From IMG/VR virus record IMGVR_UViG_3300001687_000947: a DNA stretch of 64,000 nt, one strand, 5' to 3'. The notes under the pieces were generated by a model. It had not been told where the DNA came from and did not search any database. It saw only the letters and a program-made list of their open reading frames with translations. This DNA comes from a virus. Lineage: Duplodnaviria; Heunggongvirae; Uroviricota; Caudoviricetes. The stretch's first letter is position 1; every line of letters starts with the position of its first letter. This document shows positions 22,803 to 58,815 of the stretch, in pieces. The position numbers and the translations under genes are program-made.

Positions 22803-22857
22803 TCTAGACTGAGAGTGTGCTGGAAGTAAATACAGTATGGTCTGCAAAACCATATAT

Positions 22858-45537: not shown

Positions 45538-46690
45538 GTTAAGTAAGGAATTTTTAGATAATTTATATACTAATGAAAGGATGTCTATTAGGGAAATAGC
45601 TAAGAAAGTTGGGGGTTCTAAGGGACAAATAGAATATTTGCTTGAGTTATATGGTATTCCTAAACGGTCATTTAGTGAATCACATAAAGTTAAGCATAAT
45701 AGAAGAGTAGAGAAAGAACAAAGGGAAGAAGTTGAGGCTCTTAAGAAGAGAATTAAAGGATTTAAGATTAATACTACTTTTAGCCCAGCTGTTAAGAGAA
45801 ATATGTTGATTCCTGTTCCAATTGATAATAAATGTAGAGATGCATCTGTTACACTTGTTATGTCTGATGCTCATGTTGGTGATGTGGGACATTTACCTAA
45901 ATGTTTTTGGTCTTCATTCACTAACGCTATGGAAGTAATAAAGAATATTAATAGTTTCTATAAGATTAAGAAACTTAATTTACTTATTAATGGTGATGTT
46001 GTTTCTGGTGTTAATATTTATAGGTATCAAGAATTAAGTAATCTTGTACAGCGTGGTAATTGGCAAGTTGCACTTGCTGAAATAATTATTAGGGATATGC
46101 TTAAAGAATTAGAGAAGTATAAGAAAATTGATGATATTGTTTTTGTACGTGGAACACATGAGAAGTTTGGTAATAACTTTATTTTATACTTGAAGAGAAT
46201 AATGTCTGGTAACACTATATATTTATCTCATGGTGGAGTTTATGATTTAGGTCTTAAACCATATAAGCATCATACATTGTTTATGCATGGTTATGGATTC
46301 AATAATTCTAGTCCAGTATCTAGTAGAATGATTAATGATGTTATGAAGATTGTTAATAACTATAAGAATATGGGTATGAATGTTAATAGAGTATGTAGTG
46401 CTCATAGTCATTGGCTTAGTAGTGGATTAATAATTAATGATATTTACTGGGATACTACAGGTGGATTCCAGAAATGGGCTTATACTATTAATCAGAGACC
46501 ATGTGGTATGATTGTTTACTTGTGTGCTGGTGATGAATGTCTAAGTATTCCAGTTAGACCAAATAGTGATGTTGAACTAGAAGAAAAGTTTGATCCTGGT
46601 TTAAAGTACAGAAACTTGGTGTATTATGGTAATTATTTATTGAAGCATTTAAAGGAAGTTGAGGGGATAGAACAAAATGAGTATAGCTAA
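45509..46690 (+). CDS. N-terminal HTH domain fused to calcineurin-like metallophosphoesterase
   Basis: MSIREIAKKVGGSKGQIEYLLELYGI is an HTH. The phosphoesterase signatures are VMSDAHVGD (DxH), INGDVVSG (GDxxD), VRGTHEKF (GNHE-like) and HGG. Confidence 0.5.
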   Translation: MLKMVRKRLELSKEFLDNLYTNERMSIREIAKKVGGSKGQIEYLLELYGIPKRSFSESHKVKHNRRVEKEQREEVEALKKRIKGFKINTTFSPAVKRNMLIPVPIDNKCRDASVTLVMSDAHVGDVGHLPKCFWSSFTNAMEVIKNINSFYKIKKLNLLINGDVVSGVNIYRYQELSNLVQRGNWQVALAEIIIRDMLKELEKYKKIDDIVFVRGTHEKFGNNFILYLKRIMSGNTIYLSHGGVYDLGLKPYKHHTLFMHGYGFNNSSPVSSRMINDVMKIVNNYKNMGMNVNRVCSAHSHWLSSGLIINDIYWDTTGGFQKWAYTINQRPCGMIVYLCAGDECLSIPVRPNSDVELEEKFDPGLKYRNLVYYGNYLLKHLKEVEGIEQNEYS

Positions 46691-47873
46691 ACTTAAATTA
46701 TTATGGCATAGTGTAGCACCTTGGATACGTAGTGGTTACGGTAACGTAACTAATCAAGTTGTTAGTAGACTAGTTAAATTTGGATTTGATGTAATGATAT
46801 CAGCATATTATGGAACTGAACCAGGTGGTGAACTTGAGTATAATGGTGTAAAAGTAGTGTCAAGTAAGGAAGGACCATTTGGTATAGATTCAGCTTCTAA
46901 GTATGCTAGACGTTATGGTTGTGATGCGGGATTATTGTTTACTGATTGGTGGGCATTTAGTAATTTCCCTAAGATTCTACCTAGACCAATATTGTATGGT
47001 CCAATGGATCACACTAATTATAGTGAGGAAATATTAAATTTCACTAGGATGTACAGTAAAATAATTAGTTTGTGTAAATGGCAACAAGATTACTTGAAGA
47101 GTGTTGGTATAGAGTCTGATATGATATATCATGGTGTAGATACTTCAGTATTTAAACCATTAAATAAAGCTGAGTGTAGAAAGAGATATGGTATTCCTGA
47201 AGGAGTATTTGTTATTGGAAGTGTAAGAGCAAATAGTGATAAGGAAGACCGTAAAGGACACACCCGTGATATGAAAGCAGTATCTTACTGGTTAGAGCAA
47301 CATCCAGAAATTGACCGTAAGAAAATAGTGTGGATGTACCATACTGTAGCTAATGATCCAAGAGGTATGCCTTTAACAAGTATTGCTCATAAGTATGGTT
47401 TAGATGATATTATTAAGTTTATGGATCCAAGTCAACATGATACTATGATATCAACTGAAGATTTAGTTAAGTTAATGAACACTTTTGATTTTCATTTAAT
47501 GTGTAGTAAACGTGAAGGATTTGGTTTAACATTACTTGAAACTATGGCATGTGGAGTACCTAATATTACTCATAATTTTAGTAGTATGACAGAACTAGTT
47601 GAAGGTCATGGATGGTTATGTAAAAGTTTAGGTACAGGATTAAATCTTGAAACTACACCCATTAATGCTGAAACTGCTCATCCTGATGTGTATAGTATTG
47701 TTGATTGTATAGAGGAAGCTTACTTTAAAGATGATCTTAGAAAGAAATATGGTAAAGAAAGCCGTAAGTTTGCATTAAAGTTTAATTGGGATGATTTAGT
47801 GGTTAATGAGTGGGTTCCAGTACTTGATAGTTTACTTGAAGATAAATGCATTGATGACAGGAGATTGATATAG
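46677..47873 (+). CDS. Glycosyltransferase, GT4-like (GT-B fold)
   Basis: CSKREGFGLTLLETMACGVPNIT matches the E-x7-E GT4 C-terminal motif. Confidence 0.6.
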   Translation: MSIAKLKLLWHSVAPWIRSGYGNVTNQVVSRLVKFGFDVMISAYYGTEPGGELEYNGVKVVSSKEGPFGIDSASKYARRYGCDAGLLFTDWWAFSNFPKILPRPILYGPMDHTNYSEEILNFTRMYSKIISLCKWQQDYLKSVGIESDMIYHGVDTSVFKPLNKAECRKRYGIPEGVFVIGSVRANSDKEDRKGHTRDMKAVSYWLEQHPEIDRKKIVWMYHTVANDPRGMPLTSIAHKYGLDDIIKFMDPSQHDTMISTEDLVKLMNTFDFHLMCSKREGFGLTLLETMACGVPNITHNFSSMTELVEGHGWLCKSLGTGLNLETTPINAETAHPDVYSIVDCIEEAYFKDDLRKKYGKESRKFALKFNWDDLVVNEWVPVLDSLLEDKCIDDRRLI

Positions 47874-47999
47874 TGAGTAAAGAGTTGGATAAAGTAATAA
47901 TTACAATAACAGAAGATAATAAATTTAGTATTAACGGATATGATCCAGTTGTTATAACAAAGACAATTGATATTAAAATAGAAAAAATGTGGAAAGCGT

Positions 48000-49928
48000 A
48001 TGACTACTAAAGATATTTTTGTTGGTATACGTATAGATAATATTCATCCTTGGTTTGATAGGCACAAGCAAGTTATTAGAGATATTAATTATCCTAAAGA
48101 TAACATGAGGTTTGTTTATAGTATTCAAGATAATGTTTACAAGAAAACTATTGCTGAAGAGATAAAGAAGCTTAAGGATGAAACAGGATATAATATTGAA
48201 GCATATATTGAACCACATGACCGCAATCTTAAAGCGTATGGTCAACAAATGAGTGCTCCAATATTTAATGATTGGAAAAACATATTTGATGAAGACTATT
48301 TTATGTTACTTGATTCAGATATAGTTTTAATGCCTAAGTTTACTGTTAAGGAGTTACTTAGAGTTAACTACCCTATTACTGCACCTTATGTGTATATGAT
48401 TGGCACAGGAACATTTTATAGCACATGGGAATTTAGAATGGGTGGAAGAAGGTTTAGTAATCAGAATCCACCAGGTGCAGGATTACTTGTTCCTATACAG
48501 ATAGATTCAGCTGGAGCAGTTATGATGGTTCAAGGTGATGTATTTAAGGAAATAGAATTTACTAATCCTTATCCTACTGTAATGTTCTGTTATAGAGCTT
48601 TTAATAGAGGTTACAGGACAGCTGGGTTACCTTATGTTATGGTTCAACATGATAATTTAGCTGCCAGAAGAATATTTCATAGTCCTTTACCTAGAGAGCT
48701 TGGTGGGTATCCTATGGTTGGAAACTTTGTATCTTTCTATAATAGAGTTAACATATTGAATAGGAAGCCTTTACCAGCTTATCCTGAACTATTAACTTTA
48801 CTTAAAGAAGTTAATAGTCAATATATTGAAATATCTGATAAGCAGGCAACTGACTTGTATAATTGTAGTGATATACTTAAGAATGAAAAGTCTTTAGAGT
48901 GGGCTAAGAACATTACTAAGTTTTATAATTTTTACTTTAGTAAAGACCCATGGAAACTAATGTATCAGTATTATCATGAGCCTTTACCTGAATGGCTTGA
49001 GATAGAAACAAGTACTTATTGTAACTTTAAATGTTTAATGTGTGAGAATGCTCATTGGGATGAACCAGATAGGTTTATGTCACTTAATGAATTTAAGGGA
49101 ATAATTGACCAGTTTCCTGATCTTAAATGGATAGGCTTTAGTGGTATAGGTGAAGCATTTCTTAATCCTGATCATAGAGCTCAAATGCGTTATATTAAAG
49201 ATAAGAATCCTAATACTTATGTTGAGTATTTTGACCAGTTTTTCTTACAGCAACCTGAAGTGTTTAAGGAATGGATTGATTACAGTTATGATAAAGTATA
49301 CGTTAGTTTTGATGCGGCAACTAAAGAACAATATGAACATCAAAGACCTGGTTCAAATTATGAGAAAGTAATAAGTAACCTGAAGTTGTTTGATAAGATT
49401 AAGAAAGATGAAGGTAAACATTACCCTAGATTATGTTTCCATTATATTATTAACAAGGATAATATAGGTGAAGCGGTTGACTATATTGATTTTGTAGCTG
49501 ACTTAGATATTGATGTGTGGTTTATACAGTACACTAGAATGTTACATAGTTTTCCTGAGATAGAAGATATGAGAGTTGAGATTCCAAATAAACTAGTTAA
49601 GGATATTCAAGAGAGAGCTAAGAAACGTAAGTTAGAAGCTAGATTTAATGTTAATACTGGTAATATACTTTGTCCAAGTTACAGTTGTAACGCTTGGACT
49701 CAACCTTACATTTATGTTACTGGGCATATGATTCCATGTTGTGCATGTAATGAACGTAATGCAAGAAGCACACAGAAGGAAACAGCTATGGGTAACATAT
49801 TTGAGAATACACTAGAGGAAATATGGCGTGGTAAGAAGTTTAGGAAACTTAGGAAGAACATTATGACTGGTAAAGTTACTAATTGCTGTGAGCCTTGTCC
49901 TATATTTAACCAGAGGAGTTCACCATGA
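48000..49928 (+). CDS. Radical SAM enzyme with C-terminal SPASM-like Cys cluster and N-terminal extra domain
   Basis: EIETSTYCNFKCLMCENAHWDE contains CxxxCxxC. The C-terminal CPSYSCNAWTQPYIYVTGHMIPCCACNE...CCEPCP has seven or more Cys, SPASM-like. The first ~330 aa before the radical-SAM core are unassigned. Confidence 0.55.
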   Translation: MTTKDIFVGIRIDNIHPWFDRHKQVIRDINYPKDNMRFVYSIQDNVYKKTIAEEIKKLKDETGYNIEAYIEPHDRNLKAYGQQMSAPIFNDWKNIFDEDYFMLLDSDIVLMPKFTVKELLRVNYPITAPYVYMIGTGTFYSTWEFRMGGRRFSNQNPPGAGLLVPIQIDSAGAVMMVQGDVFKEIEFTNPYPTVMFCYRAFNRGYRTAGLPYVMVQHDNLAARRIFHSPLPRELGGYPMVGNFVSFYNRVNILNRKPLPAYPELLTLLKEVNSQYIEISDKQATDLYNCSDILKNEKSLEWAKNITKFYNFYFSKDPWKLMYQYYHEPLPEWLEIETSTYCNFKCLMCENAHWDEPDRFMSLNEFKGIIDQFPDLKWIGFSGIGEAFLNPDHRAQMRYIKDKNPNTYVEYFDQFFLQQPEVFKEWIDYSYDKVYVSFDAATKEQYEHQRPGSNYEKVISNLKLFDKIKKDEGKHYPRLCFHYIINKDNIGEAVDYIDFVADLDIDVWFIQYTRMLHSFPEIEDMRVEIPNKLVKDIQERAKKRKLEARFNVNTGNILCPSYSCNAWTQPYIYVTGHMIPCCACNERNARSTQKETAMGNIFENTLEEIWRGKKFRKLRKNIMTGKVTNCCEPCPIFNQRSSP

Positions 49929-50225: not shown

Positions 50226-51275
50226 TTGCGTATTCTTATAGTTCATCCTATGTTTCATGTTTATGGTGGAGCAGAATTAGCTATAGTTAAATTAGTTGAG
50301 TATCTTAAAGGTAAAGATCATACTGTTGATTTGCTTACTATGATAACAATGCCAGAGGTTAAGGAAGATCTGAAAACAGATAACATATTTTATGCTAATA
50401 CTTATCAGGAGTTGGCACAGTTACTTGGTGGATTAACATTGAATTATGATGTTATTAATTATCATAATCATCCAGCTGAAGTACTGTTCCCTTCTCCATA
50501 TCCTTCAGTATGGTTTATGAATGAGCCACCAGAGGAAGCATTATGTGGACAACCACTTAATCCAACTGATGTTAAGCATGTGCATGATAATATAACTAAG
50601 ATTGCTGTATCAGATGTTTATAATAAGGTTAGAGTAAGGAAACTATATGATAGAGATGATGCTGTAGTTATTCCATATGGTGTAGATTATGATTATTTCA
50701 GTAAAGGTAAAGCAAACAGATGGTACTTTGATAATAAGAATAAATTTACTATACTTCAAGCAGCTTGGATTCATCCTAGAAAGAACCAGTTAGAAACTTT
50801 ACGTATATTTAATGAAGTGTTAAAGTTTGTTCCTAATGCACGTTTAATATTATGTGGAAGCATTACTGTTCCATATATTAATGAACTAATTAAGTATATT
50901 GAAGATAATAAATTGACTGATAATGTTACTATTGATGGAACATTTGGTGATAGAAACTATTTAAGGAATCTTTATCATAGTGTGGATTTACTGTTGCAAC
51001 CTATAACTGATCAAGGTGGATGGATTAGTCCATTGGAAGCAATATGTGCAGGTTTACCTGTTGTAGCATCTAACAATGCTGTATTTGCAAGTTACTTTAG
51101 GAAACATAAACTAGCTACTGTTACAGATAATTATATTGAAGCTATTATGGATATTTATAAACATAATAGAAAGTATAAGAAGATTAATAAGGTTGCTAAA
51201 GAGTATATTAAAGCTAATCTTACTTGGGAAAAGTATGCAAGTGAAGTTGAGAAGTTATTAAAGAGTGCTAAGTAA
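50226..51275 (+). CDS. Glycosyltransferase, GT4-like
   Basis: MRILIVHPMFHVYGGAE at the N-terminus. The C-terminal SPLEAICAGLPVVASNN is the GT-B nucleotide-binding motif. Confidence 0.55.
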   Translation: MRILIVHPMFHVYGGAELAIVKLVEYLKGKDHTVDLLTMITMPEVKEDLKTDNIFYANTYQELAQLLGGLTLNYDVINYHNHPAEVLFPSPYPSVWFMNEPPEEALCGQPLNPTDVKHVHDNITKIAVSDVYNKVRVRKLYDRDDAVVIPYGVDYDYFSKGKANRWYFDNKNKFTILQAAWIHPRKNQLETLRIFNEVLKFVPNARLILCGSITVPYINELIKYIEDNKLTDNVTIDGTFGDRNYLRNLYHSVDLLLQPITDQGGWISPLEAICAGLPVVASNNAVFASYFRKHKLATVTDNYIEAIMDIYKHNRKYKKINKVAKEYIKANLTWEKYASEVEKLLKSAK

Positions 51276-52111: not shown

Positions 52112-53181
52112 TGGTTAGAACATCTATAGTTATAGCTTGTTGCAATGAGGAAGAAGCTATAGGTAAGGTTGTTGATTCAATACTTAAAGTTAAAGGTAAA
52201 GATGATGAGGTAATAGTTGTTAATAATGGAAGCACAGATAATTCATTAAATATATTGAGGTCTTATGGTAATAAGATTAGAGTTATTTCTCATAGTAGAA
52301 TTTATCCTTATAGGGAATCTATAAGAAGTGGATGTAAGTTTGCTAGGGGAAACAAGATATTCTTTATGGATGGTGATGGACAGTACAAGTTTAATCCAAA
52401 TATTATAGAGCAAGGTAACGGTGTAATATCAGGTTTACGTAGTTTAAGAGCTGATGATAATATAGCTAAGTTTGCATCTAATATATTATATAAGATTTTA
52501 TCTATAGTGTTTAGAACTAAGCTTGATGATTTAAATTGTGGATATAAAGTGTTCTCTAGGGAATTGGTTCCACGTTTAGATGATTCTAAATATTTTAAGT
52601 ACAGTCCTTGGGTAGAGTTTATTATGGAATTATACTTTGATGGTTATGATATTAAACAACCTAAAATTAATCATTATAATAGGATAGGTACTGGTGGAAG
52701 TAGACTTAATAAGAGAAGGCTATTTACTATGACTGTTCAAGGAATTGGATTATTTACTTATATTATAGTTAAAATATCAAAGTTTTCTTATTATACATTT
52801 AAAACTAGAATATTAGGATTATTAGGTAGAAACCGTACATTTATAACTGATAATATTTGGATTACTGATAGTAAATCAACACTTACAGTATTTTCTATTG
52901 ATGCAAGAATATTACCTGAAGGAAGATATGTTAATCCTGAATATTTAGATAGTATGGTTATGGTGATAGAGGCTATGAGAAAAGTAATGCCTGTAAGTGT
53001 GTTCTGTAGACAAGGTAGAGGAAGATCAGTTATGAGTGTAGCTGGATGGTTAATGAAATATAAGGATATGAAATGGAATATAGCATATCAATTTATTAAA
53101 AGTAAACGTGATGTAGCTTATCTTACCAGAGAACAATTTAAAGTATTAAGGGACTATGAGAAGTGGTTAAAGAATGTATGA
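52111..53181 (+). CDS. GT2 glycosyltransferase (DPM1/GtrB-like) fused to C-terminal CX5R phosphatase-like domain
   Basis: The N-terminal SIVIACCNEEEAIG...VVNNGSTDNS...FMDGDGQY is GT-A/GT2. The C-terminal VSVFCRQGRGRSVMSVAGWLM is a PTP/DUSP P-loop. Confidence 0.5.
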   Translation: MVRTSIVIACCNEEEAIGKVVDSILKVKGKDDEVIVVNNGSTDNSLNILRSYGNKIRVISHSRIYPYRESIRSGCKFARGNKIFFMDGDGQYKFNPNIIEQGNGVISGLRSLRADDNIAKFASNILYKILSIVFRTKLDDLNCGYKVFSRELVPRLDDSKYFKYSPWVEFIMELYFDGYDIKQPKINHYNRIGTGGSRLNKRRLFTMTVQGIGLFTYIIVKISKFSYYTFKTRILGLLGRNRTFITDNIWITDSKSTLTVFSIDARILPEGRYVNPEYLDSMVMVIEAMRKVMPVSVFCRQGRGRSVMSVAGWLMKYKDMKWNIAYQFIKSKRDVAYLTREQFKVLRDYEKWLKNV

Positions 53182-53872
53182 TATTTGTGTAGTTAGTATG
53201 ATCTGTAATGAGATAGAGATACTTCCAATGTACTATAGGTATATTAAGAAATGGTGTAAATCATGGAAGGTTCTTGATCATGGAAGTACAGATGGTTCAG
53301 TAGAATTTCTTAAATATATGAGTGAACGTAATGAAATAAATATTGAAGTGTTCCAGAGAGAATGTGGTGATTTTGATAAGGACTTCTATAAGGAATGGAA
53401 TTGGATACTTGATAAAGTTGATTGTAAATGGACTTATGTTGGTCATATAGATGAATTTTGTCCATATATGGATACTATATTATCACAGATGTTCAAGTTT
53501 AATGCTATCTATATTATTAGAAGAGAAGAAATGATAAGTTTGTTTCCACCATTATCATTTGGTAAAGAAACGCCATTTATGAGGATATTTCCAACGGATT
53601 GGAAGATAAGATTTATAGAGGGTAATCATGTGCATAGAGAAGAGTTTAATCCTAGAGAATTTCCAGTTAGAGAAGCACAGATTCCATTCTATCATTTAGG
53701 GGAATGTAGAAATAGTGAACATGTTAGATTTAAGGAGAAAGCTTATGAGGATTGTTCAGGTGATACAATATTTGGTTCTAAGTATACTGAGAAAGATAGA
53801 CAGGAAAGACGTAAGGGAGCACATTTACTTAAAGATGAACATTTACCTGATTTAATGGATATGATATTATAA
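53174..53872 (+). CDS. GT2-like glycosyltransferase (small)
   Basis: VVSMICNEIEILP...DHGSTDGS fits a GT-A N-terminal pattern. Confidence 0.4.
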   Translation: MYDICVVSMICNEIEILPMYYRYIKKWCKSWKVLDHGSTDGSVEFLKYMSERNEINIEVFQRECGDFDKDFYKEWNWILDKVDCKWTYVGHIDEFCPYMDTILSQMFKFNAIYIIRREEMISLFPPLSFGKETPFMRIFPTDWKIRFIEGNHVHREEFNPREFPVREAQIPFYHLGECRNSEHVRFKEKAYEDCSGDTIFGSKYTEKDRQERRKGAHLLKDEHLPDLMDMIL

Positions 53873-54906
53873 TGAGTAAAATAAAAGTATGTATGGATGG
53901 TGTACCAGGTTGGCTTGGCAATTGTGTACAACGGAAACTTTATGATAATCCAAGATTTGCTACTGTAAGAGCAATGTACTTTGGGGATAAACATCCACTT
54001 ACAGAAGAAGGAAGTAAAATAGAATATGTGGCTGGGGATATTAGGAATTACAGTAAGTGTCTTGAATTAACTAAGGATATGAATATACTTGTTCACATTG
54101 TTGGCATTATACATCCAAAGAAAGTTAAGGATTTCTATAACATTAATGTTAAAGGCACAGATACTATTATTAGAGCAGCTATTGAGAATGGTGTTGAACG
54201 TATAATACATATTTCAAGTAATAGTGTTTACGGTATGTATCCTTATAGTATGAATGAGTTTACTCCTAGAGATTCCTATATGCATTACGGTAAGAGTAAG
54301 GCTATGGGTGAAGATATAGTGTTCCAGAAGTGTATGGTATCTGATACTGAAGCAGTTATACTTATTCCGTGCTGGTTTTACGGTGAAGGACAGCCTGATA
54401 GATCAACTAGACTGTTTAAGATGATAGCTAAAGGTAATCCTATGATATTTGGTAAAGGAAATAACGTGAGGGGAATGACTTATATTGGTAACTTAGCTGA
54501 TGCAATAATTAAAGCTATTGAGAAACCTAAATCAGAAGGTGTGAATAGCTACTGGATATGTGATGATGAGCAACATACCACTAATGAAATATATAAGGCT
54601 ATATGGATTGAATTATGGAAGCGGGGAATAAGAGATAAAGGTAAAGCGTATGATGATATGGATGTTTGGAAGTTTAAACCTAGATATTTACCTAGTGTAG
54701 CATGTAAGGTTGGAAGGTTTGGAGATAGGGTGCTTCAAGGTTTAGGATTATATAATCAAACTATTCATGTGCTTGGTGAAATGGACCAGAATATTGCTGC
54801 TGATAATACTTTAGCTAAGAGAGAGCTTGGTTGGAAGAATAATGTTAGCTTTGAGGAAGGTATAGCTAGAAGCATTCAATGGTGCAGAGAGAATGGTAAG
54901 TTATAA
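53872..54906 (+). CDS. NAD-dependent epimerase/dehydratase (extended SDR)
   Basis: A Gly-rich N-terminus (CMDGVPGWLGNCV) and catalytic YGKSK (YxxxK) are present. Confidence 0.55.
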   Translation: MSKIKVCMDGVPGWLGNCVQRKLYDNPRFATVRAMYFGDKHPLTEEGSKIEYVAGDIRNYSKCLELTKDMNILVHIVGIIHPKKVKDFYNINVKGTDTIIRAAIENGVERIIHISSNSVYGMYPYSMNEFTPRDSYMHYGKSKAMGEDIVFQKCMVSDTEAVILIPCWFYGEGQPDRSTRLFKMIAKGNPMIFGKGNNVRGMTYIGNLADAIIKAIEKPKSEGVNSYWICDDEQHTTNEIYKAIWIELWKRGIRDKGKAYDDMDVWKFKPRYLPSVACKVGRFGDRVLQGLGLYNQTIHVLGEMDQNIAADNTLAKRELGWKNNVSFEEGIARSIQWCRENGKL

Positions 54907-54932
54907 AGGAATTAGAATGAATATTAAGGTGA

Positions 54933-55640
54933 AGAAAAATAATAGTAATAACTAATGTTGGTAAATACAAGTTATTCTATAGGAAAGGTACTATTGATGA
55001 GTTTATATTTGGTGAAGTAACAGGTGGAAACTATAATGGCTACAAGAAGTATGTTTCTGATCCAAGAGTAATTATTGATATTGGAGCACATATAGGAACA
55101 TTTACTCTTAAAGTATTAAATGATCATCCTAAAGCAAAAGTATGGTCATGGGAAATTATACCAGCAAACTATGATATGTTACACTTTAACATATTAATTA
55201 ATGCTCTAGATGGTAAATGTAAAGCATTTGAATTTGGTGTAAGTAAAGATACTTATAATAGAATTGCTATGATGTCTACTGTTAATAATGGTGCTAATAT
55301 TTTAACTAGTCCAAATGATGGAATTATAGATAAAGGAGATATGATTAAAGTAGCTACATTAGACTTTGAGAGCGTAGTTAATATTACAGGTAAGAAAGAA
55401 GTGGATTTAGTTAAGTGTGATATTGAAGGTGCAGAGTTTGAAGTGTTTATTAATTGTAAACGTAGTTTATTAAGGAAGGTTAAATGTTATATTATGGAAA
55501 TTCATGTTAACAAAGATGATATTAAAGGAATGTATAATTTAAGGTTATTAGCTGAAACATTTGAGAAAGGTGGATTCAAGATTATGCAGAGTGGTCCTAT
55601 TATGTTATTTATAAGGGATGATATATATGGTAAGAAATAA
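54933..55640 (+). CDS. FkbM-family methyltransferase; N-terminal part has no in-frame start, apparently frameshifted from ATG at 54917 in an A5 run
   Basis: The open frame from 54933 encodes ...VIIDIGAHIGTFTLKVL... (FkbM SAM-binding motif) but has no ATG/GTG/TTG before 55176. The ATG at 54917 (MNIKVKK) is in the -1 frame relative to it. Deleting one A of aaaaa (54935-54939) joins them. Confidence 0.5.
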   Translation, partial: RKIIVITNVGKYKLFYRKGTIDEFIFGEVTGGNYNGYKKYVSDPRVIIDIGAHIGTFTLKVLNDHPKAKVWSWEIIPANYDMLHFNILINALDGKCKAFEFGVSKDTYNRIAMMSTVNNGANILTSPNDGIIDKGDMIKVATLDFESVVNITGKKEVDLVKCDIEGAEFEVFINCKRSLLRKVKCYIMEIHVNKDDIKGMYNLRLLAETFEKGGFKIMQSGPIMLFIRDDIYGKK

Positions 55641-56442
55641 AGATGTAGAAATATTATATGGTAAAAATGTACTTAAGCAATTTAGAAATTATTTGTTTAA
55701 TGAAAATCCAATATCATTGTTTGATGGTAGAAAAGTTGGGTTTCTAGTTAAACCTAATATGTTACGTAATGAATCATCTAGTACAGGTATAACAACTGAT
55801 GTTAAAGTAGTAGAGATTATTGTTGATTACTTGTACAGTATGGGATTTAGAGATATAATTGTTGGTGATGGTGGAGAAGCAAGTTATGATACTATGGAAA
55901 CTTTACGGAATAATAATTATTTTAGTATAGTTGATATTTATCCTGAAGTTAAGATTGTTGACTTAAATAAGGGACCAATGATTCCAAAGGTTATAGGTAA
56001 TGTTCAAATGTTTATTAATAAATATGCTTTAGATCATTATGTTATTAGTGTAGCCAAGCTTAAACCTCATGGTATGATGCAAGCAACTATGACACTTAAG
56101 AATCTTATGGGATGTGTGTTACCTAAAGGACATATGCATGATAATTTTACTATGAAGATACGGGATGTTTATAATTATATTAAACCTATTTACGGTGTAG
56201 TTGATGGTATTATAGCTAATGGTAGATGTGAGAACATTGCTTGTCCAGTTAAGATGAATACTATTCTTTGCGGTAGAGATTTACCAACTGTTGATAAGAT
56301 TGGTTCTATGATTATAGGTAGAACGGCTAGTCATATAGATAATTTGTATAAACGTAAGAATGAAGCATTAGATAATAATTTATGTGACAAGAAGATTTTA
56401 TCTAATCTAATTAATTTATATAGGAAAGGTGGATTAAAATAG
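55618..56442 (+). CDS. DUF362-like protein
   Basis: VGFLVKPNMLRNESSSTGITTDVKVVEIIVDYLYSMGFRDIIVGDGGE resembles the conserved DUF362 N-terminal block. Confidence 0.35.
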   Translation: MIYMVRNKDVEILYGKNVLKQFRNYLFNENPISLFDGRKVGFLVKPNMLRNESSSTGITTDVKVVEIIVDYLYSMGFRDIIVGDGGEASYDTMETLRNNNYFSIVDIYPEVKIVDLNKGPMIPKVIGNVQMFINKYALDHYVISVAKLKPHGMMQATMTLKNLMGCVLPKGHMHDNFTMKIRDVYNYIKPIYGVVDGIIANGRCENIACPVKMNTILCGRDLPTVDKIGSMIIGRTASHIDNLYKRKNEALDNNLCDKKILSNLINLYRKGGLK

Positions 56443-56691
56443 GTAAGTTACCAAGAAATTATATACGTAAGAATAATAGAAGTGGAAATATACCAAATTG
56501 GGCTATTGGAACTGATGATTGGCAATTAATTTTTAGTGATGGGGTATTAAGTATATTTGTTGTGCGTAGAAGAAGTGGATTAACTGATGTGCTAGCTGTT
56601 GCTAAAGGCAATAATAATTTATATCTTGATGGGTTTGATCATGTGTATAGTCAATATGGTGAATTATAAATGAATAAATTATTGTTACACT

Positions 56692-56982
56692 TTGGAGTTG
56701 ATAACATTAGGTAGATGTATAGTAATAAGAGCATATAAGGAGCATCCTAATATAATATGTAAGGGATGGCAAAAATTATGTGAGGAACGTAAGATTTCAT
56801 ATACATATGGTGGATGTGATTGTTCTATGATGGAAAGAAGATATCAGATTCTACAAGATGGAGAATGGATAAATGTATATAATTGTCCATATTGTGATAA
56901 GCCAATTAATAAGATAATTTGGAAAGCTGTTAAACCAGTTAAAGTTACTATTATTGAACCAGAGGAGCCAGAATATGAGTGA
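56692..56982 (+). CDS. Small Cys-rich zinc-binding protein
   Basis: CKGW...CDCSMMER...CPYCDKP. TTG start. Confidence 0.3.
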   Translation: MELITLGRCIVIRAYKEHPNIICKGWQKLCEERKISYTYGGCDCSMMERRYQILQDGEWINVYNCPYCDKPINKIIWKAVKPVKVTIIEPEEPEYE

Positions 56983-57155
56983 GTTAAGCTTTTCTTGGAT
57001 TGATGATTGGATATTAGGTGGAGTTAAATTCATATGTAAATGTGGTCATCAAATAGAGAAAGATGGTTATGATTGTGGATTGCAAGATAAAACTATTAAT
57101 TGTAGAAAATGTAATAGGAAATACGTAATAGATGTAAAGGTTGAGGTAAGAGAAG

Positions 57156-58157
57156 TTGAGTAGTGGTATTGTTGTTACTGGTTCAAGTGGATTCTTAGGT
57201 TCAGCAATAGTTAAGGAGTTGCTTAAGAGAAAACATGAAGTAGTTGGAATAGATATTGTTCCAGCAAGCAAGTGGATGTTTGCTAGTAAACTGTTTAAGT
57301 TTCATAGAATGAGTGTAGTTAGTCATAAAATATATGATATTGTTGAAGGTAAAACTGTTATTCATTGTGGTGCCAAAGTGCCTATAACAAGATCAAGTTT
57401 TGCTGAATATGTTACTACTAATGCAACTGGTTCATATAATATAGCTTTAGGTATGCCTAAGAAATATATATTCATTAGTTCATCAGCAGTATATGGTGTT
57501 CCTAATAGAGTAATAAAAGAACATACAAAGTATAAACCTATAGAGAATTATGGTAAAAGTAAGCTTATGGCTGAAGGTTTACTTAGTATGCATCATATTA
57601 TGACAGATATGCCTCTTACTATTATTAGACCAAGAACAATAATAGGTAATGGTAGAATGGGAATGATGGATTTCCTGTTCCCTAGAATAATGAAGAATAA
57701 ACCTGTATATTTACTTGGAGACGGAAAGAATAAATTCCAGTTCTTAGCTCTAGATGATCTTGTTAGTGCTATTATGAAGTGTATTGATTTAGATTATGGA
57801 TTCCACATTTATAATTTAGGTACAGATGATTATACTACTTTAAAGGAAGATATTGAAGATACTATTGTTAGGGTTGGATCTAAAAGCAAAGTAATCTGTT
57901 TGCCTAAATGTTCAAGTTGGATACTTAGAGTAATAGATAATCTTGGTTTATCACCTATGACAAGATGGCATTATGATACTATATCAAGTAATTTTGTATT
58001 TGATATTTCTATAGCTGAGAAAGAGCTTGGTTGGCATCCATTATATTCTAATAAGCTAATGTTGTTTAGTGCTTATAATTGGTATAGCAAACATAAAGGT
58101 GAAGGTAATACTCCTCACACTAAGAGTATAAATAAGAAACTATTGGAGTGGATATAA
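57156..58157 (+). CDS. NAD-dependent epimerase/dehydratase
   Basis: IVVTGSSGFLGSAIV (GxxGxxG) and YGKSKLMAE (YxxxK) are present. Confidence 0.65.
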   Translation: MSSGIVVTGSSGFLGSAIVKELLKRKHEVVGIDIVPASKWMFASKLFKFHRMSVVSHKIYDIVEGKTVIHCGAKVPITRSSFAEYVTTNATGSYNIALGMPKKYIFISSSAVYGVPNRVIKEHTKYKPIENYGKSKLMAEGLLSMHHIMTDMPLTIIRPRTIIGNGRMGMMDFLFPRIMKNKPVYLLGDGKNKFQFLALDDLVSAIMKCIDLDYGFHIYNLGTDDYTTLKEDIEDTIVRVGSKSKVICLPKCSSWILRVIDNLGLSPMTRWHYDTISSNFVFDISIAEKELGWHPLYSNKLMLFSAYNWYSKHKGEGNTPHTKSINKKLLEWI

Positions 58158-58158
58158 T

Positions 58159-58815
58159 ATGGAAACTAATTATGAAGCTATAATACTTGCTGGTGGAGAA
58201 TCATGGAGACTTAAACCTGACATATGGACAACTAAACCTATGCTTAAGATAGGTGATTGGACACTACTTGAATATCAGTTACGTTGGCTAATGCAGTATG
58301 GTATTAAACATATTATAATAGCAAGTGACCAGAAGTATAATATTAGATTGTCATTTGATGAGTATGTAACTTGGGCTATAGAGTCATATCATAAAGGTAC
58401 AGGTGGAGCAGTTATGGTTGCTGTTGATTATCTTAATAATCCAAAGCTTCCATTCTACGTTATGAATGTTGATGATATATGTTTAGGTTATAATCCAGTT
58501 ACTTTAATTGTTCCTGAGACAGAAGCTAGAATAGCTGTAGCTAAACCTAGACTTGGGTTTGGAATGGTGAAACTTAGACAGGATTTAGTGTTAGGATTCA
58601 AAGAGAAGCCTTATGCTGACTTCTATGTGTCATGTGGACACTATGCTTTCAAGAAACATATTGTTGATAGATACTTTCCAGATGATGGAAGCCTAGAGGA
58701 TATTGTATTACCTGAGTTAGCTAGAAGAAGAATATTGCATAACCAGAGACTTCATAAGTGGTACACTATTAACACAACTAAAGATTATATGATCATTAAA
58801 GAAATGTTAGAGTGA
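58159..58815 (+). CDS. Sugar-phosphate nucleotidyltransferase
   Basis: AIILAGGESWRLKP matches the LAGGxGxRL signature of NDP-sugar pyrophosphorylases. Confidence 0.55.
   Translation: METNYEAIILAGGESWRLKPDIWTTKPMLKIGDWTLLEYQLRWLMQYGIKHIIIASDQKYNIRLSFDEYVTWAIESYHKGTGGAVMVAVDYLNNPKLPFYVMNVDDICLGYNPVTLIVPETEARIAVAKPRLGFGMVKLRQDLVLGFKEKPYADFYVSCGHYAFKKHIVDRYFPDDGSLEDIVLPELARRRILHNQRLHKWYTINTTKDYMIIKEMLE

What the first reader, a model, noticed from the sequence alone, without database searches (positions are those of the whole stretch)
46677..58815. A 12-kb virus-encoded glycan / lipid-linked sugar biosynthesis island
Fourteen co-directional genes make up the island. They encode two GT4 glycosyltransferases, a radical-SAM/SPASM enzyme, a UbiA-family polyprenyl-phosphate transferase, a GT2 (DPM1-like) enzyme fused to a phosphatase domain, a second GT2, two NAD-dependent epimerase/dehydratases, an FkbM-family methyltransferase, a DUF362 protein, two Zn-ribbon proteins and an NDP-sugar pyrophosphorylase. 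This is enough to activate a sugar, epimerise and methylate it, load it on a polyprenyl phosphate and transfer it. A lipid-carrier-based glycosylation pathway of this size is unusual in a virus. It could decorate virion proteins (the Asp-box protein at 62107 may bind the same glycan), remodel the host S-layer or cell surface to block superinfection, or modify DNA.
Basis: partly seen in the sequence, partly recalled or inferred. Interest (0 to 1): 0.7.

Follow-up and report, generated by a model that had tools for sequence, protein, structure and literature searches.

The report
Viral lipid-linked pentose glycan island
A roughly 95-kb tailed virus, probably of an anaerobic archaeon, carries a 12-kb sugar-chemistry gene island whose core looks like the tuberculosis-type route for building a five-carbon sugar on a membrane lipid carrier, yet it lacks the enzymes that normally move that sugar to its final target.

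Summary
The block is viral, not a host insert. Its composition matches the rest of the window and it has no att-like repeats. Its core keeps the same order, at 31-67% amino-acid identity, in at least seven related virus contigs (GC 30-45%).

The UbiA protein is not a generic prenyltransferase. It belongs to the polyprenyl-phosphate 5-phosphoribosyltransferase subfamily. Its only PDB sequence hit and best fold match is M. tuberculosis Rv3806c (TM 0.87), and the NDxxDxxxD...P.K..RP motif is invariant. Together with the fused DSPc phosphatase and two extended SDRs it forms the donor-synthesis half of a lipid-linked pentofuranose pathway. A metagenomic locus (L119) has the same UbiA/SDR/SDR trio plus a GtrA flippase, a PHP phosphatase and a YfhO-like GT-C.

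The viruses encode no flippase and no GT-C. The UbiA block is a swappable cassette: close relatives replace it with nucleotide-sugar genes but keep GT4 / GT-A-radical-SAM / GT4.

The final target is undetermined, with host envelope favoured over virion. This is a new variant of a known kind. Interest 0.6.

The parts
45509..46690 (+). Conserved upstream neighbour, probably not part of the glycan pathway: an HTH domain plus a calcineurin-like metallophosphoesterase. It overlaps GT4-A by 14 nt.
   Evidence: Invariant DxH / GD / GxHE / H / HxH motifs in six orthologues. PHROG 'exonuclease' E 6.9e-7. Weak PDB hits to the archaeal PolD small subunit DP1. Syntenic in L005, L090-L092 and L098.
46677..47873 (+). 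GT4-A, a GT-B fold Leloir glycosyltransferase. Part of the constant arm.
   Evidence: Pfam Glyco_trans_1_4 E 1.2e-11 and Glycos_transf_1 E 8.2e-11. PHROG 2170 E 1.6e-23. PDB hits BshA and chlorovirus B736L. Orthologues at 41-67% identity in every relative.
48000..49928 (+). Fusion of a GT-A-like N-terminal domain (residues about 1-330) with a radical SAM / SPASM domain (335-634). Part of the constant arm.
   Evidence: Pfam Radical_SAM E 2e-11 and SPASM E 6.3e-11. Invariant C341/C345/C348 and auxiliary-cluster cysteines. The N-terminal domain has a DxD/DxH motif and a weak Anp1 hit, E 0.004. Fold hits SuiB, viperin, DesII, SkfB and BlsE. The only PDB sequence hit is BtrN. Homologues at 53-67% identity: P0113-P0119.
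50226..51275 (+). GT4-B, the second GT-B fold glycosyltransferase. Part of the constant arm.
   Evidence: Pfam Glycos_transf_1 E 7.3e-16. PHROG 2170 E 6.3e-19. Orthologues in all relatives.
51275..52111 (+). UbiA-family membrane enzyme of the polyprenyl-phosphate 5-phosphoribosyltransferase (DPPRS/PPPRS) type. It is the only polytopic membrane protein in the region.
   Evidence: NCBIfam decaprenyl-phosphate phosphoribosyltransferase NF008977 E 1.9e-34. The only PDB sequence hit is Rv3806c, 8j8j, E 1.7e-13. AF2 model pLDDT 92.3; Foldseek top hit 8j8j at TM 0.87, against 0.63-0.71 for other UbiA structures. Invariant N56-D57-xx-D60-xxx-D64...P68-x-K70-xx-R73-P74. Six hydropathy-predicted TM segments.
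52111..53181 (+). Fusion of a GtrB/DPM1-like GT2 domain (residues about 1-250) with a DSPc cysteine phosphatase (about 270-356). The phosphatase is the proposed 5'-phosphatase for the lipid-linked phosphoribose.
   Evidence: Pfam Glycos_transf_2 E 2e-20 and DSPc E 3.7e-11. PHROG 841 'GtrB-like' E 2.9e-18. NCBIfam PgfS, dolichyl-P hexose transferase, ArnC and AglJ. PDB ArnC and GtrB sll0501. The CX5R loop is invariant in nine sequences. In the P0113 virus the two domains are separate adjacent genes.
53174..53872 (+). Small soluble GT-A (GT2_4 / GmaR-like) glycosyltransferase.
   Evidence: Pfam Glyco_tranf_2_4 E 0.0036. A five-orthologue profile hits GmaR, E 1.2e-5. Conserved NE...DxGSTDGS motifs.
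53872..54906 (+). SDR-A, an extended short-chain dehydrogenase/epimerase. Proposed to act on the lipid-linked pentofuranose.
   Evidence: Pfam Epimerase E 1.1e-24. GxxGxxG and YxxxK motifs present. Orthologue at 37% identity immediately after the UbiA homologue in L119, and at 35% in L161.
54933..55640 (+). FkbM-family SAM methyltransferase. This is a lineage-specific insert. The likely start is ATA 54939; the ATG at 55176 would truncate the SAM-binding half.
   Evidence: The extended ORF covers FkbM profile positions 1-164 of 173, E 1.3e-12. AAGGTGA lies 7 nt upstream of the ATA.
55618..56442 (+). DUF362 protein of unknown role. Shared with the closest UbiA-bearing relative.
   Evidence: Pfam DUF362 E 4.8e-31. 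It lies between SDR-A and SDR-B in the P0113 contig as well.
56692..57163 (+). Two small Cys-rich ORFs (56692-56982 and 56954-57163). Possible zinc ribbons, function unknown.
   Evidence: CxC/CxxC patterns are visible in the translation. No family hit.
57156..58157 (+). SDR-B, the second extended SDR and partner of SDR-A.
   Evidence: Pfam Epimerase E 3.1e-30. Orthologue at 34% identity follows the SDR-A orthologue in L119 and L161. Adjacent to SDR-A in L005 and L090-L092.
58159..58815 (+). Sugar-1-phosphate nucleotidyltransferase, which makes an NDP-sugar for the Leloir glycosyltransferases.
   Evidence: Pfam NTP_transferase E 3.4e-14. 54-62% identical orthologues sit next to nrdD in L097 and L098.

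Best explanation
The island is a modular glycan-biosynthesis locus belonging to a previously undescribed lineage of large tailed viruses, probably archaeal.

Core mechanism (all steps inferred from homology):
1. The UbiA-family enzyme (51275-52111) transfers 5-phosphoribose from PRPP to a polyprenyl phosphate on the cytoplasmic face of the membrane. In an archaeon the carrier is probably dolichyl phosphate.
2. The DSPc domain fused to the next protein removes the 5'-phosphate.
3. The paired SDR-A and SDR-B convert the lipid-linked ribofuranose to an epimer (arabino-, xylo- or lyxofuranose). They would do this either as an oxidase/reductase pair or as two epimerases.
4. In parallel, the NTP_transferase makes an NDP-sugar. 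The GtrB-like GT2 domain may load this onto the same carrier. The soluble glycosyltransferases (two GT4, one GmaR-like GT-A, and the GT-A domain fused to the radical SAM/SPASM enzyme) use NDP-sugars to build or decorate the acceptor glycan. The radical SAM enzyme and the FkbM methyltransferase tailor sugars.
5. The virus encodes no flippase and no GT-C. I therefore infer that the lipid-linked donor is handed to host export and transfer enzymes and ends up on a host cell-surface glycoconjugate (S-layer, pilus or other envelope glycan).

The outcome would be a virus-induced 'seroconversion' that alters receptors, for example for superinfection exclusion. The UbiA/phosphatase/SDR block behaves as an exchangeable donor cassette within a conserved GT4 / radical-SAM / GT4 frame.
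For: Shown by tool results:
- Family assignments.
- The UbiA protein is of the phosphoribosyltransferase type by sequence, motif and fold.
- The CX5R phosphatase loop and the GT2 DxD motif are intact and conserved.
- GT2 and DSPc are fused in five viruses and are adjacent separate genes in a sixth.
- SDR-A and SDR-B have intact NAD and YxxxK motifs.
- Locus L119 has UbiA, then an SDR-A orthologue (37%), an SDR-B orthologue (34%), GtrA, a PHP phosphatase and a YfhO/DUF6044 polytopic protein. L161 has SDR-A, SDR-B, UbiA and a 13-TM protein. The UbiA/SDR/SDR trio is therefore a recurrent functional unit tied to flippase plus GT-C systems.
- 15 of 21 metagenomic UbiA-homologue loci have a large polytopic neighbour, against 0 of 5 viral loci.
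- Module order is conserved at 31-67% identity across viruses with GC 30-45%.
- The cassette is swapped in L097 and L098.

From the literature: the PPPRS, phosphatase, SDR epimerase, flippase and GT-C logic was demonstrated biochemically in Citrobacter youngae. That GT-C is promiscuous towards the pentose, and a phage example has been noted (PMC11127046).

Viral context:
- A major-capsid-like protein (PHROG E 1.8e-7; all PDB profile hits are capsid proteins), a portal-like protein and a protease-like protein.
- PolB is nearest to haloarchaeal tailed viruses.
- Relatives are present in IMG/VR.
Against: - No enzyme activity, substrate or product has been observed.
- The UbiA score is below NCBIfam's equivalog cutoff (119 against 234 bits). 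PRPP use is inferred, not proven.
- No flippase or GT-C is encoded in what could be read, so dependence on host enzymes is an assumption. About 23 kb of the 97-kb contig could not be inspected.
- Several points fit cytoplasmic protein glycosylation at least as well as envelope remodelling: all glycosyltransferases other than UbiA are soluble; one resembles the flagellin O-GlcNAc transferase GmaR; SPASM enzymes often act on proteins; and the island abuts the head genes in L005 and L090-L092.
- The close relatives L097 and L098 keep the constant arm without any lipid-linked step, so the lipid carrier is not essential to the island's basic function.
- The host and its envelope are unknown.
Confidence: 0.45

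Rival explanations
1. Virion or viral-protein glycosylation in the cytoplasm. The soluble glycosyltransferases (GT4-A, GT4-B, the GmaR-like GT-A and the GT-A/radical-SAM fusion) decorate capsid or tail proteins before assembly, as in chloroviruses and some mycobacteriophages. The variable cassette would only change which sugar is added.
For: - All glycosyltransferases except UbiA lack TM segments.
- The 232-aa family hits the flagellin O-GlcNAc transferase GmaR.
- GT4-A hits chlorovirus PBCV-1 B736L.
- SPASM-type radical SAM enzymes are typically protein or peptide modifiers.
- The island lies 0.1-3 kb from the head module, which includes the major capsid gene, in L005 and L090-L092.
- The constant arm persists in L097 and L098 without any membrane protein.
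- No flippase or GT-C is present.
Against: - In every characterised case, polyprenyl-phosphate-linked monosaccharides are donors for extracytoplasmic GT-C enzymes (established knowledge; PMC11127046), whereas tailed virions assemble in the cytoplasm. This reading leaves the conserved UbiA / DSPc / SDR / SDR block and the GtrB-like GT2 unexplained.
- In the window virus the island is about 20 kb from the capsid gene.
- Five capsid-related IMG/VR contigs show no island next to the capsid gene.
Confidence: 0.3
2. The end product is a membrane glycolipid. The phosphoribosyl or pentofuranosyl lipid made by UbiA is itself extended by the GT2 and GT4 enzymes on the cytoplasmic leaflet into a virus-specific glycolipid. 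That glycolipid would change membrane properties, for example for egress or replication sites.
For: - UbiA is the only membrane enzyme and no export or transfer machinery is encoded.
- GT4-B has weak NCBIfam hits to glycolipid synthases, namely monoglucosyl-diacylglycerol synthase and the LTA-anchor glycosyltransferase.
- The GT2 domain is fused to the phosphatase that would expose the 5-OH.
Against: - The GT4 hits are generic and far below family cutoffs.
- Homologous UbiA/SDR/SDR units elsewhere sit next to a flippase and a GT-C, which points to a donor role rather than an end product.
- I know of no precedent.
Confidence: 0.12
3. DNA or nucleotide hypermodification. The glycosyltransferases and the radical SAM enzyme glycosylate modified bases in viral DNA. 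This would fit the neighbouring nucleotide-metabolism genes.
For: The island lies between dCMP deaminase, a small DSPc protein, Ogg and DNA methylases upstream and nrdD downstream. Phage DNA glycosylation by GT-B enzymes is known (established knowledge).
Against: - No dCMP/dUMP hydroxymethylase or thymidylate-synthase-like gene was detected among the window ORFs scanned.
- An integral-membrane phosphoribosyltransferase and a GtrB-like enzyme have no role in DNA chemistry.
- No match to known defence or conflict models.
Confidence: 0.04
4. The block is a recent host-derived chromosomal insertion or an assembly chimera, not a functional part of the virus.
For: All the families are common in cellular polysaccharide loci.
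Against: - The identical sequence was assembled independently in four datasets (ENA, two JGI, Logan).
- GC content and tetranucleotide distance (0.0150) fall within the range of other 12-kb segments of the window (0.0104-0.0172).
- No att-like flanking repeats.
- The same gene order occurs in at least seven divergent virus contigs.
- The GT2-DSPc fusion was not found in 185,579 species genomes. Only about five clusters of it exist among 1.84 billion representative proteins.
Confidence: 0.02

Closest known systems
Three-component extracytoplasmic pentofuranose glycosylation systems (Citrobacter youngae O1/O2 ORF15 PPPRS-phosphatase, ORF14 MATE flippase, ORF12 GT-C/GT136, ORF13 SDR epimerase; Kelly et al. 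2024, PMC11127046)
   Same: - A UbiA-type polyprenyl-phosphate phosphoribosyltransferase with the same NDxxDxxxD loop.
- A dedicated phosphatase physically coupled to the pathway.
- Extended-SDR epimerase(s) that set the identity of the pentose.
- That paper already noted one Caudoviricetes example.
   Different: - The phosphatase is a DSPc cysteine phosphatase, not a HAD enzyme, and it is fused to a GtrB-like GT2 rather than to the UbiA enzyme.
- There are two SDRs instead of none or one.
- No flippase and no GT-C are encoded.
- The unit sits inside a larger island with two GT4, two further GT-A domains and a radical SAM/SPASM enzyme.
- The carrier is a probably archaeal virus lineage.
Mycobacterial decaprenyl-phosphoarabinose (DPA) pathway: Rv3806c (DPPRS), Rv3807c phosphatase, DprE1/DprE2 epimerase, Emb/Aft GT-C arabinosyltransferases
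   Same: - The first enzyme is the closest solved structure (8j8j, TM 0.87).
- The same order of chemistry is expected: phosphoribosyl transfer, dephosphorylation, then a two-protein epimerisation.
   Different: - No FAD-dependent DprE1-like oxidase is present.
- The two redox proteins are extended SDRs (about 330 aa), not a flavoenzyme plus a classical SDR.
- The phosphatase family differs (DSPc against PAP2).
- There are no GT-C transferases.
- The identity of the pentose product is unknown.
Phage O-antigen seroconversion cassettes (GtrA flippase, GtrB bactoprenol glucosyltransferase, GtrC GT-C) of Shigella and Salmonella phages
   Same: - Virus-encoded synthesis of a lipid-linked monosaccharide donor. 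The GT2 domain's best PHROG is 'GtrB-like O-antigen conversion' (E 2.9e-18).
- The biological logic is plausibly the same: receptor alteration after infection.
   Different: - The GtrB-like domain lacks the C-terminal TM helices and is fused to a phosphatase.
- GtrA and GtrC are absent.
- The island is four times larger and adds a PRPP-based pentose route.
Metagenomic locus L119 (SDBU01010658.1): UbiA, SDR, SDR, GtrA, PHP phosphatase, YfhO/DUF6044 GT-C
   Same: It has orthologues of UbiA (29%), SDR-A (37%) and SDR-B (34%) in the same order as in the viruses.
   Different: It carries its own flippase, a PHP-type phosphatase and a GT-C. It has no GT4 or radical SAM arm. Its GC content is 44% and it shows no viral genes in the 10 kb held.
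Virus-encoded cytoplasmic glycosylation machineries (chlorovirus PBCV-1 glycosyltransferases such as B736L; mycobacteriophage virion glycosylation operons)
   Same: Multi-gene, virus-encoded sets of soluble glycosyltransferases with sugar-nucleotide enzymes. GT4-A has a PDB sequence hit to PBCV-1 B736L (E 8.7e-6).
   Different: To my knowledge those systems use no lipid carrier. Here a membrane phosphoribosyltransferase and a GtrB-like enzyme are conserved parts of the module.

Membership tests
Polyprenyl-phosphate 5-phosphoribosyltransferase subfamily of UbiA (Rv3806c / C. youngae ORF15-C / P. aeruginosa PPPRS) | UbiA fold: a multi-helix integral membrane bundle with a central cavity | tested here: met
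   Pfam UbiA E 4.1e-21. The AF2 model has pLDDT 92.3 and is all-helical. Foldseek hits only UbiA-superfamily structures at E<0.01.
Polyprenyl-phosphate 5-phosphoribosyltransferase subfamily of UbiA (Rv3806c / C. youngae ORF15-C / P. aeruginosa PPPRS) | Loop II motif NDxxDxxxD, whose residues are required for activity in Rv3806c and ORF15, followed by HPxKxxRP | tested here: met
   N56, D57, D60, D64, P68, K70, R73 and P74 are invariant in five viral and five other homologues. They align residue-for-residue with Rv3806c. The functional importance of these residues is described in PMC11127046.
Polyprenyl-phosphate 5-phosphoribosyltransferase subfamily of UbiA (Rv3806c / C. youngae ORF15-C / P. 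aeruginosa PPPRS) | Closer to DPPRS than to other UbiA subfamilies (DGGGP synthase, MenA, UbiA, CtaB, ChlG) | tested here: met
   NCBIfam DPPRS models score E 1.9e-34 and 1.4e-28, against 4.8e-12 or weaker for other subfamilies. The only PDB sequence hit is 8j8j. TM-score is 0.87 to 8j8j, against 0.63-0.71 for DGGGPS, AfUbiA and ApUbiA.
Polyprenyl-phosphate 5-phosphoribosyltransferase subfamily of UbiA (Rv3806c / C. youngae ORF15-C / P. aeruginosa PPPRS) | Reaches the curated equivalog score of the NCBIfam DPPRS models | tested here: not met
   119.4 bits against a cutoff of 234 for NF008977, and 99.8 against 207 for NF008978. It is a divergent member, so I file it as 'DPPRS-like'.
Polyprenyl-phosphate 5-phosphoribosyltransferase subfamily of UbiA (Rv3806c / C. 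youngae ORF15-C / P. aeruginosa PPPRS) | Uses PRPP as donor and a polyprenyl phosphate as acceptor | not testable with these tools
   This needs a membrane assay with PRPP plus farnesyl- or dolichyl-phosphate.
Three-component pentofuranose glycosylation system (Kelly et al. 2024) | A phosphoribose 5'-phosphatase coupled to the synthase | tested here: met
   A phosphatase with an intact CX5R loop is encoded in the gene immediately after UbiA in all six UbiA-bearing viruses. It belongs to a different family, DSPc rather than HAD. Its substrate is inferred.
Three-component pentofuranose glycosylation system (Kelly et al. 2024) | A flippase (MATE, or GtrA-type) for the lipid-linked pentose | tested here: not met
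   UbiA is the only polytopic protein in the window, in L008 (10 kb downstream) and in L005 and L090-L092. No ORF resembles the L119 GtrA. About 23 kb of the contig was not seen.
Three-component pentofuranose glycosylation system (Kelly et al. 2024) | A GT-C fold transferase (GT136 or YfhO-like) that uses the lipid-linked donor | tested here: not met
   No ORF of 380 aa or more with at least 7 TM segments occurs in any viral locus, against 15 of 21 metagenomic loci anchored on a UbiA homologue. The hydropathy method used is crude.
Three-component pentofuranose glycosylation system (Kelly et al. 2024) | Auxiliary cytoplasmic SDR epimerase(s) that determine the pentose | tested here: met
   Two extended SDRs with GxxGxxG and YxxxK motifs are present. 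Their orthologues flank UbiA homologues in L119 and L161. Their activity on a lipid-linked pentose is inferred.
Mycobacterial DPA pathway | DprE1-type FAD-dependent oxidase paired with the DprE2 reductase | tested here: not met
   No FAD-oxidase family was found among the island proteins. The two redox proteins are both extended SDRs.
Phage Gtr seroconversion cassette | GtrB-type polyprenyl-phosphate glycosyltransferase (GT2 with C-terminal TM helices) | tested here: inconclusive
   The GT2 domain matches PHROG 841 GtrB-like (E 2.9e-18), and PgfS, ArnC, AglJ and the dolichyl-P hexose transferase. However, no TM segment is predicted and the C-terminus is a phosphatase.
Phage Gtr seroconversion cassette | GtrA flippase and a GtrC-type GT-C | tested here: not met
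Radical SAM / SPASM enzymes | CxxxCxxC radical SAM cluster motif plus a C-terminal Cys-rich auxiliary cluster domain | tested here: met
   C341, C345 and C348 are invariant, as are C563, C580, C581, C630 and C633. Pfam Radical_SAM and SPASM are above threshold. The AF2 radical SAM domain is confident and matches SuiB, SkfB, DesII and viperin.
Tailed dsDNA virus (Caudoviricetes-like) genome as the carrier | HK97-type major capsid protein, portal and terminase | tested here: inconclusive
   - Capsid-like 361-aa protein: PHROG major head E 1.8e-7, Pfam Phage_capsid_4 E 2.4e-4 (below threshold), and all five PDB profile hits are capsid proteins.
- The portal hit is below threshold.
- Protease PHROG E 2.6e-25.
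- No terminase was identified in the part read.
- Relatives are catalogued in IMG/VR.

The most novel reading that the evidence does not exclude
The lipid-linked pentofuranose is not exported at all. Instead, the virus's own soluble GT-A or GT-B enzymes would use it as a donor on the cytoplasmic face, to glycosylate virion proteins or another intracellular target. One candidate is the GT2 domain fused to the phosphatase, the GmaR-like GT, or the GT-A domain fused to the radical SAM enzyme.

This would be the first use of a polyprenyl-phosphate sugar donor by a non-GT-C glycosyltransferase. It would explain two things: why no flippase or GT-C is ever encoded, and why the UbiA cassette is interchangeable with nucleotide-sugar cassettes in sister viruses.
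Probability: 0.12. Interest if true: 0.85.

Novelty: new variant of a known kind. Interest (0 to 1): 0.6.

Why it matters
Lipid-linked pentofuranose donors are known from the mycobacterial cell wall, where they are a drug target, and more recently from Gram-negative O antigens. Finding the donor-synthesis half of that pathway as a conserved, exchangeable cassette in an uncultured lineage of large, probably archaeal, tailed viruses has several consequences.

- It extends this chemistry to viruses and possibly to archaeal envelopes.
- It shows a fourth, unrelated phosphatase family (DSPc) recruited for the same step.
- It identifies a conserved pair of extended SDRs as a candidate flavin-free alternative to DprE1/DprE2.
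- It poses a concrete question: who flips and transfers the sugar when the virus brings neither enzyme?
- It gives glycobiologists a small set of genes to express, and gives virologists a marker for virus-driven surface or virion glycan diversification in anoxic sediments.

Tried and rejected
1. Known phage: megablast of the island against 50,697 phage records gave no match. The capsid protein gave no tblastn match.
2. Single-protein scans of IMG/VR with PolB and with the fusion found nothing. Only the two-sequence alignment A1 recovered relatives.
3. A scan of IMG/VR with the radical-SAM alignment A3 picked poor patterns and returned one irrelevant locus.
4. I first read the two extra 356/357-aa ORFs in L091 as free-standing copies of the radical-SAM protein's N-terminal domain. 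The alignment showed they are radical SAM/SPASM paralogues (CxxxCxxC), so I dropped that reading.
5. The AF2 model of the radical-SAM fusion was poor for the N-terminal domain (pLDDT <50 for residues 72-250). No fold assignment was made from it. The GT-A call rests on motifs and weak Anp1 hits.
6. The 393-aa upstream protein was considered as a member of the island, because it is translationally coupled and syntenic. It is an HTH-metallophosphoesterase with nuclease-type affinities, so I left it out.
7. Defence or anti-defence system: PADLOC gave no hits.
8. Host-derived insert: rejected.
9. ORF 2150-2614 was considered as a GtrA-like flippase. It is a signal-anchored beta-rich protein with no similarity to GtrA.
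Two contexts that I looked up were uninformative.
11. Literature searches for the contig or sample identifiers, and for archaeal-virus UbiA or radical-SAM islands, found no prior description.
12. The rest of the contig beyond window +10 kb could not be fetched, because only window-encoded proteins can be looked up.

Full report
**1. What is in the sequence**

The window has about 30% GC and a strong positive GC skew, and essentially every ORF is on the + strand.
- Two GT4 glycosyltransferases.
- A radical SAM/SPASM protein.
- A UbiA-family membrane protein.
- A GT2 fused to a DSPc phosphatase.
- Two extended SDR epimerase/dehydratases.
- An FkbM methyltransferase.
- A DUF362 protein.
- A sugar-1-phosphate nucleotidyltransferase.

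Several details need refining.
- The 'second GT2' (53174-53872) is only weakly GT2_4-like in Pfam. Its orthologue profile does hit the GT domain of the flagellin O-GlcNAc transferase GmaR (E 1.2e-5).
- The two 'Zn-ribbon' ORFs are Cys-rich but match no family.
- The first 330 residues of the radical-SAM protein form an additional GT-A-like domain, with a DxD/DxH motif and a weak Anp1 hit.
- The FkbM gene really begins upstream of the annotated ATG. The frame is open from 54933, and the longer product covers the whole FkbM profile, including the SAM-binding motif. An ATA codon at 54939 sits behind an AAGGTGA site, at the same spacing as the ribosome-binding sites of neighbouring genes.

**2. 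Is it viral or host DNA?**

The window is 100% identical to contigs assembled independently from four datasets. The longest are 96,876 bp (ENA) and 90,944 bp (JGI).

The surrounding genes fit a large tailed virus.
- Upstream are a family B DNA polymerase whose nearest GenBank relatives are haloarchaeal tailed viruses (25% identity), a Rad51/RadA-type recombinase, an ERCC4 nuclease, DNA methylases, a prohead-protease-like protein and a sub-threshold portal match.
- Downstream are nrdD, a 1,725-aa protein with a faint tape-measure match and a 361-aa protein. That 361-aa protein hits PHROG major head proteins (E 1.8e-7), and the few PDB matches of its family profile are all capsid proteins.
- A terminase was not identified in the part I could read.

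I regard 'tailed virus, probably of an anaerobic archaeon' as well supported but not proven. The host is unknown.

- The island's GC content (0.309) and its tetranucleotide distance to the rest of the window (0.0150) lie inside the range for other 12-kb segments (0.0104-0.0172).
- There are no att-like flanking repeats, and promoter- and terminator-like sites are not enriched over shuffles.
- Above all, the island is conserved in related viruses, as the next section shows.

**3. Comparative anatomy**

The GT2-DSPc fusion is extremely rare.
- A word-indexed search of 5.8 billion proteins found only one other example.
- A full HMMER scan of 1.84 billion representatives found about five fusion clusters, plus a few split forms.
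- A scan of 185,579 species genomes found only GT2-domain matches and no fusion.

Every fusion whose context I could see lies in a virus-like contig. These are L005 (23.7 kb) and the IMG/VR contigs L090 and L092 (108-110 kb, 35% GC) and L091 (114 kb, 45% GC).

All of them share the same gene order at 31-45% identity:
- nrdD, sometimes with nrdG.
- An HTH-metallophosphoesterase.
- GT4-A.
- The GT-A/radical-SAM fusion.
- GT4-B.
- The 232-aa glycosyltransferase.
- UbiA.
- GT2-DSPc.
- SDR-A.
- SDR-B.
- A head module that contains a capsid gene 36% identical to the window virus's.

Closer relatives were found through the radical-SAM protein (53-67% identity).
- The 75.8-kb contig carrying P0113 has the whole island, including DUF362 and the nucleotidyltransferase. 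In it GT2 and DSPc are separate adjacent genes, a B12-radical-SAM enzyme takes the place of FkbM, and an HNH gene lies between DUF362 and SDR-B.
- L097 and L098 (31-32% GC) keep GT4-A, the radical SAM enzyme and GT4-B at one end and the nucleotidyltransferase and nrdD at the other. They have no UbiA, no GT2-DSPc, no SDR-A or SDR-B, and no membrane protein at all. In their place are an unrelated SDR and a second nucleotidyltransferase. L098 additionally has PAPS-reductase-like, phosphodiesterase-like and ARPP-1 genes.

The island is therefore modular. It has a constant arm (46677-51275), a variable donor cassette (51275-58157 in the window) and the nucleotidyltransferase. Conserved flanks around a variable centre are typical of surface-glycan loci.

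**4. What the UbiA cassette does**

The UbiA protein belongs to the polyprenyl-phosphate 5-phosphoribosyltransferase subfamily.
- Its best NCBIfam models are decaprenyl-phosphate phosphoribosyltransferase (E 1.9e-34). The score is below the equivalog cutoff, and other UbiA subfamilies score 1e-12 or worse.
- Its only PDB sequence hit is M. tuberculosis Rv3806c.
- A high-confidence AF2 model (pLDDT 92.3) superposes on Rv3806c with TM 0.87 and rmsd 3.0 Å, against TM 0.63-0.71 for DGGGP synthases and other UbiA structures.
- The catalytic loop NDxxDxxxD...P.K..RP is invariant in five viral and five other homologues. Mutagenesis shows these residues are required in Rv3806c and in C. youngae ORF15 (PMC11127046).

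In the characterised systems this enzyme makes polyprenyl-P-ribose-5-P from PRPP. A phosphatase then removes the 5'-phosphate. That phosphatase is PAP2 in mycobacteria and a HAD domain fused to the synthase in C. youngae. Redox enzymes then epimerise the lipid-linked ribose: DprE1/E2 give Araf, and a single GalE-like SDR gives Xylf. A flippase and a GT-C finally deliver the sugar outside the cytoplasm.

The viral cassette supplies candidates for the first three steps. The DSPc domain has an invariant CX5R loop, and both SDRs have intact cofactor and catalytic motifs.

The best independent support comes from homologue loci fetched from metagenomes.
- L119 encodes UbiA, an SDR-A orthologue (37%, E 3e-73), an SDR-B orthologue (34%, E 9e-57), GtrA, a PHP-family phosphatase and a 717-aa YfhO/DUF6044 polytopic protein.
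- L161 encodes SDR-A, SDR-B, UbiA and a 13-TM, 702-aa protein.

The UbiA/SDR-A/SDR-B trio therefore recurs as a unit with flippase plus GT-C systems, while the phosphatase is supplied by a different family each time.

**5. What is missing**

UbiA is the only polytopic membrane protein in the 64-kb window, in the next 10 kb, and in L005 and L090-L092. No ORF resembles GtrA. By contrast, 15 of 21 metagenomic loci anchored on a UbiA homologue have a large polytopic neighbour within 6 kb. The hydropathy method used for this comparison is crude.

The viruses thus carry the donor-synthesis half of a pentofuranose system, but not the export and transfer half.

**6. The rest of the island**

- The GT2 domain is of the GtrB/DPM1/ArnC/AglJ/PgfS type, that is, a polyprenyl-phosphate glycosyltransferase. 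It lacks TM helices.
- The radical-SAM domain is a generic SPASM/twitch enzyme. Its fold neighbours include the sugar-modifying enzymes DesII and BlsE and the peptide maturases SuiB and SkfB. Its only PDB sequence hit is BtrN. Its fusion to a GT-A domain suggests that it tailors the sugar being transferred, but this is inference.
- GT4-A and GT4-B are ordinary GT-B Leloir enzymes.
- No protein matches known defence models.

**7. Most likely function and rivals**

I am fairly confident (about 0.7) that UbiA, DSPc, SDR-A and SDR-B make a polyprenyl- or dolichyl-phosphate-linked pentofuranose. The destination of that sugar is the weak point.

The favoured reading (0.45) is that the donor, and possibly a lipid-linked hexose from the GtrB-like domain, is passed to host flippase and GT-C enzymes and changes a host surface glycan. 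This would be a Gtr-like seroconversion. It fits two facts: every known use of such donors is extracytoplasmic, and the characterised GT-C is promiscuous towards the pentose.

The main rival (0.3) is cytoplasmic glycosylation of virion proteins. Several observations favour it:
- The glycosyltransferases other than UbiA are soluble.
- One of them resembles GmaR.
- The radical SAM enzyme is of the SPASM type.
- The island lies next to the head genes in four relatives.
- The constant arm persists without any lipid step in L097 and L098.

That reading does not explain the lipid-carrier enzymes. It could do so only if a soluble glycosyltransferase uses the lipid-linked donor, which would be new enzymology (the novel case, about 0.12).

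A glycolipid end product (0.12), DNA modification (0.04) and a host-derived insert (0.02) are less likely.

**8. Novelty**

The chemistry is known, and Kelly et al. already noted one Caudoviricetes example of a three-component system. The following are new:
- A conserved viral lineage in which only the donor half is present.
- A DSPc phosphatase, fused to a GtrB-like GT2, doing the phosphatase job.
- A conserved pair of extended SDRs.
- Embedding of the cassette in a larger island with a GT-A/radical-SAM fusion.
- Cassette exchange among sister viruses.

UbiA-type genes are nearly absent from sequenced phages. There is no PHROG family for them, and only one weak hit among 50,697 GenBank records. 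I found no paper describing this island.

Verdict: a real feature that is a new variant of a known kind. Interest 0.6.

Noticed in passing
window 54933-55640: The FkbM methyltransferase ORF has no ATG/GTG/TTG start for its N-terminal, SAM-binding half. The frame is open from 54933, and an ATA codon at 54939 follows an AAGGTGA ribosome-binding site. The gene either starts at a non-canonical ATA or is a start-codon-less pseudogene. Public gene calls truncate it to 154 aa.
   Followed up: partly
window 58865-59377 and 59356-61101: A free-standing LAGLIDADG homing endonuclease sits immediately upstream of the anaerobic ribonucleotide reductase gene nrdD and overlaps it by 22 nt. In the relative carrying P0113, an HNH endonuclease gene is instead inserted between DUF362 and SDR-B. 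Homing endonucleases seem to move around this region.
   Followed up: no
window 44666-45034 and 45031-45537: A second, stand-alone DSPc phosphatase (122 aa, CX5R intact) is translationally coupled to a dCMP/cytidine deaminase. The same pair occurs in the P0113 relative, next to a dCTP deaminase. This may be a nucleotide-directed role for a 'protein phosphatase' fold.
   Followed up: no
window 45509-46690: A 393-aa protein with an N-terminal HTH and a complete calcineurin-like metallophosphoesterase motif set. It has weak similarity to the archaeal PolD small subunit (DP1) and to the PHROG 'exonuclease' family. It always lies between the nrdD/nrdG or nucleotide genes and GT4-A in the related viruses, and it overlaps GT4-A by 14 nt.
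   Followed up: partly
It is followed by a CxxCxxCC protein and a 1,725-aa protein with a faint tape-measure match. It could be a glycan-binding or glycan-cleaving tail component.
   Followed up: partly
L097 3949-7976; L098 5342-10739: In the closest relatives the UbiA cassette is replaced by a different SDR (Polysacc_synt_2-like) and extra nucleotidyltransferases. L098 additionally has PAPS-reductase-like, phosphodiesterase-like and ARPP-1 genes. This is a different sugar-donor cassette in the same frame.
   Followed up: partly
L091 7007-9154 and 17737-20513: The 45% GC relative has two extra stand-alone radical SAM/SPASM paralogues (356 and 357 aa) inside the island. It also has two paralogous major-capsid-like genes (354 and 358 aa).
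   Followed up: no
window 5363-11058: An upstream cluster holds an ATP-grasp protein (5363-6229), a class-II glutamine amidotransferase with a C-terminal zinc-finger-like region (8949-10154), and three large proteins (451, 380 and 296 aa) with no significant family match. It may be a second small biosynthetic or modification module.
   Followed up: no
window 22811-22885 and 22973-23668: A tRNA-Cys (GCA) gene lies next to a 231-aa radical SAM/Fer4_12 protein. That protein is orthologous to the gene adjacent to nrdD in L091 and L098, so it is probably the NrdG activase. In the window virus it lies 36 kb away from nrdD.
   Followed up: partly
window 12-848: An SPFH/Band 7 (stomatin/prohibitin-like) protein is encoded at the left edge of the window (Pfam E 8.7e-32). 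This is an unusual membrane-scaffold gene for a virus.
   Followed up: no
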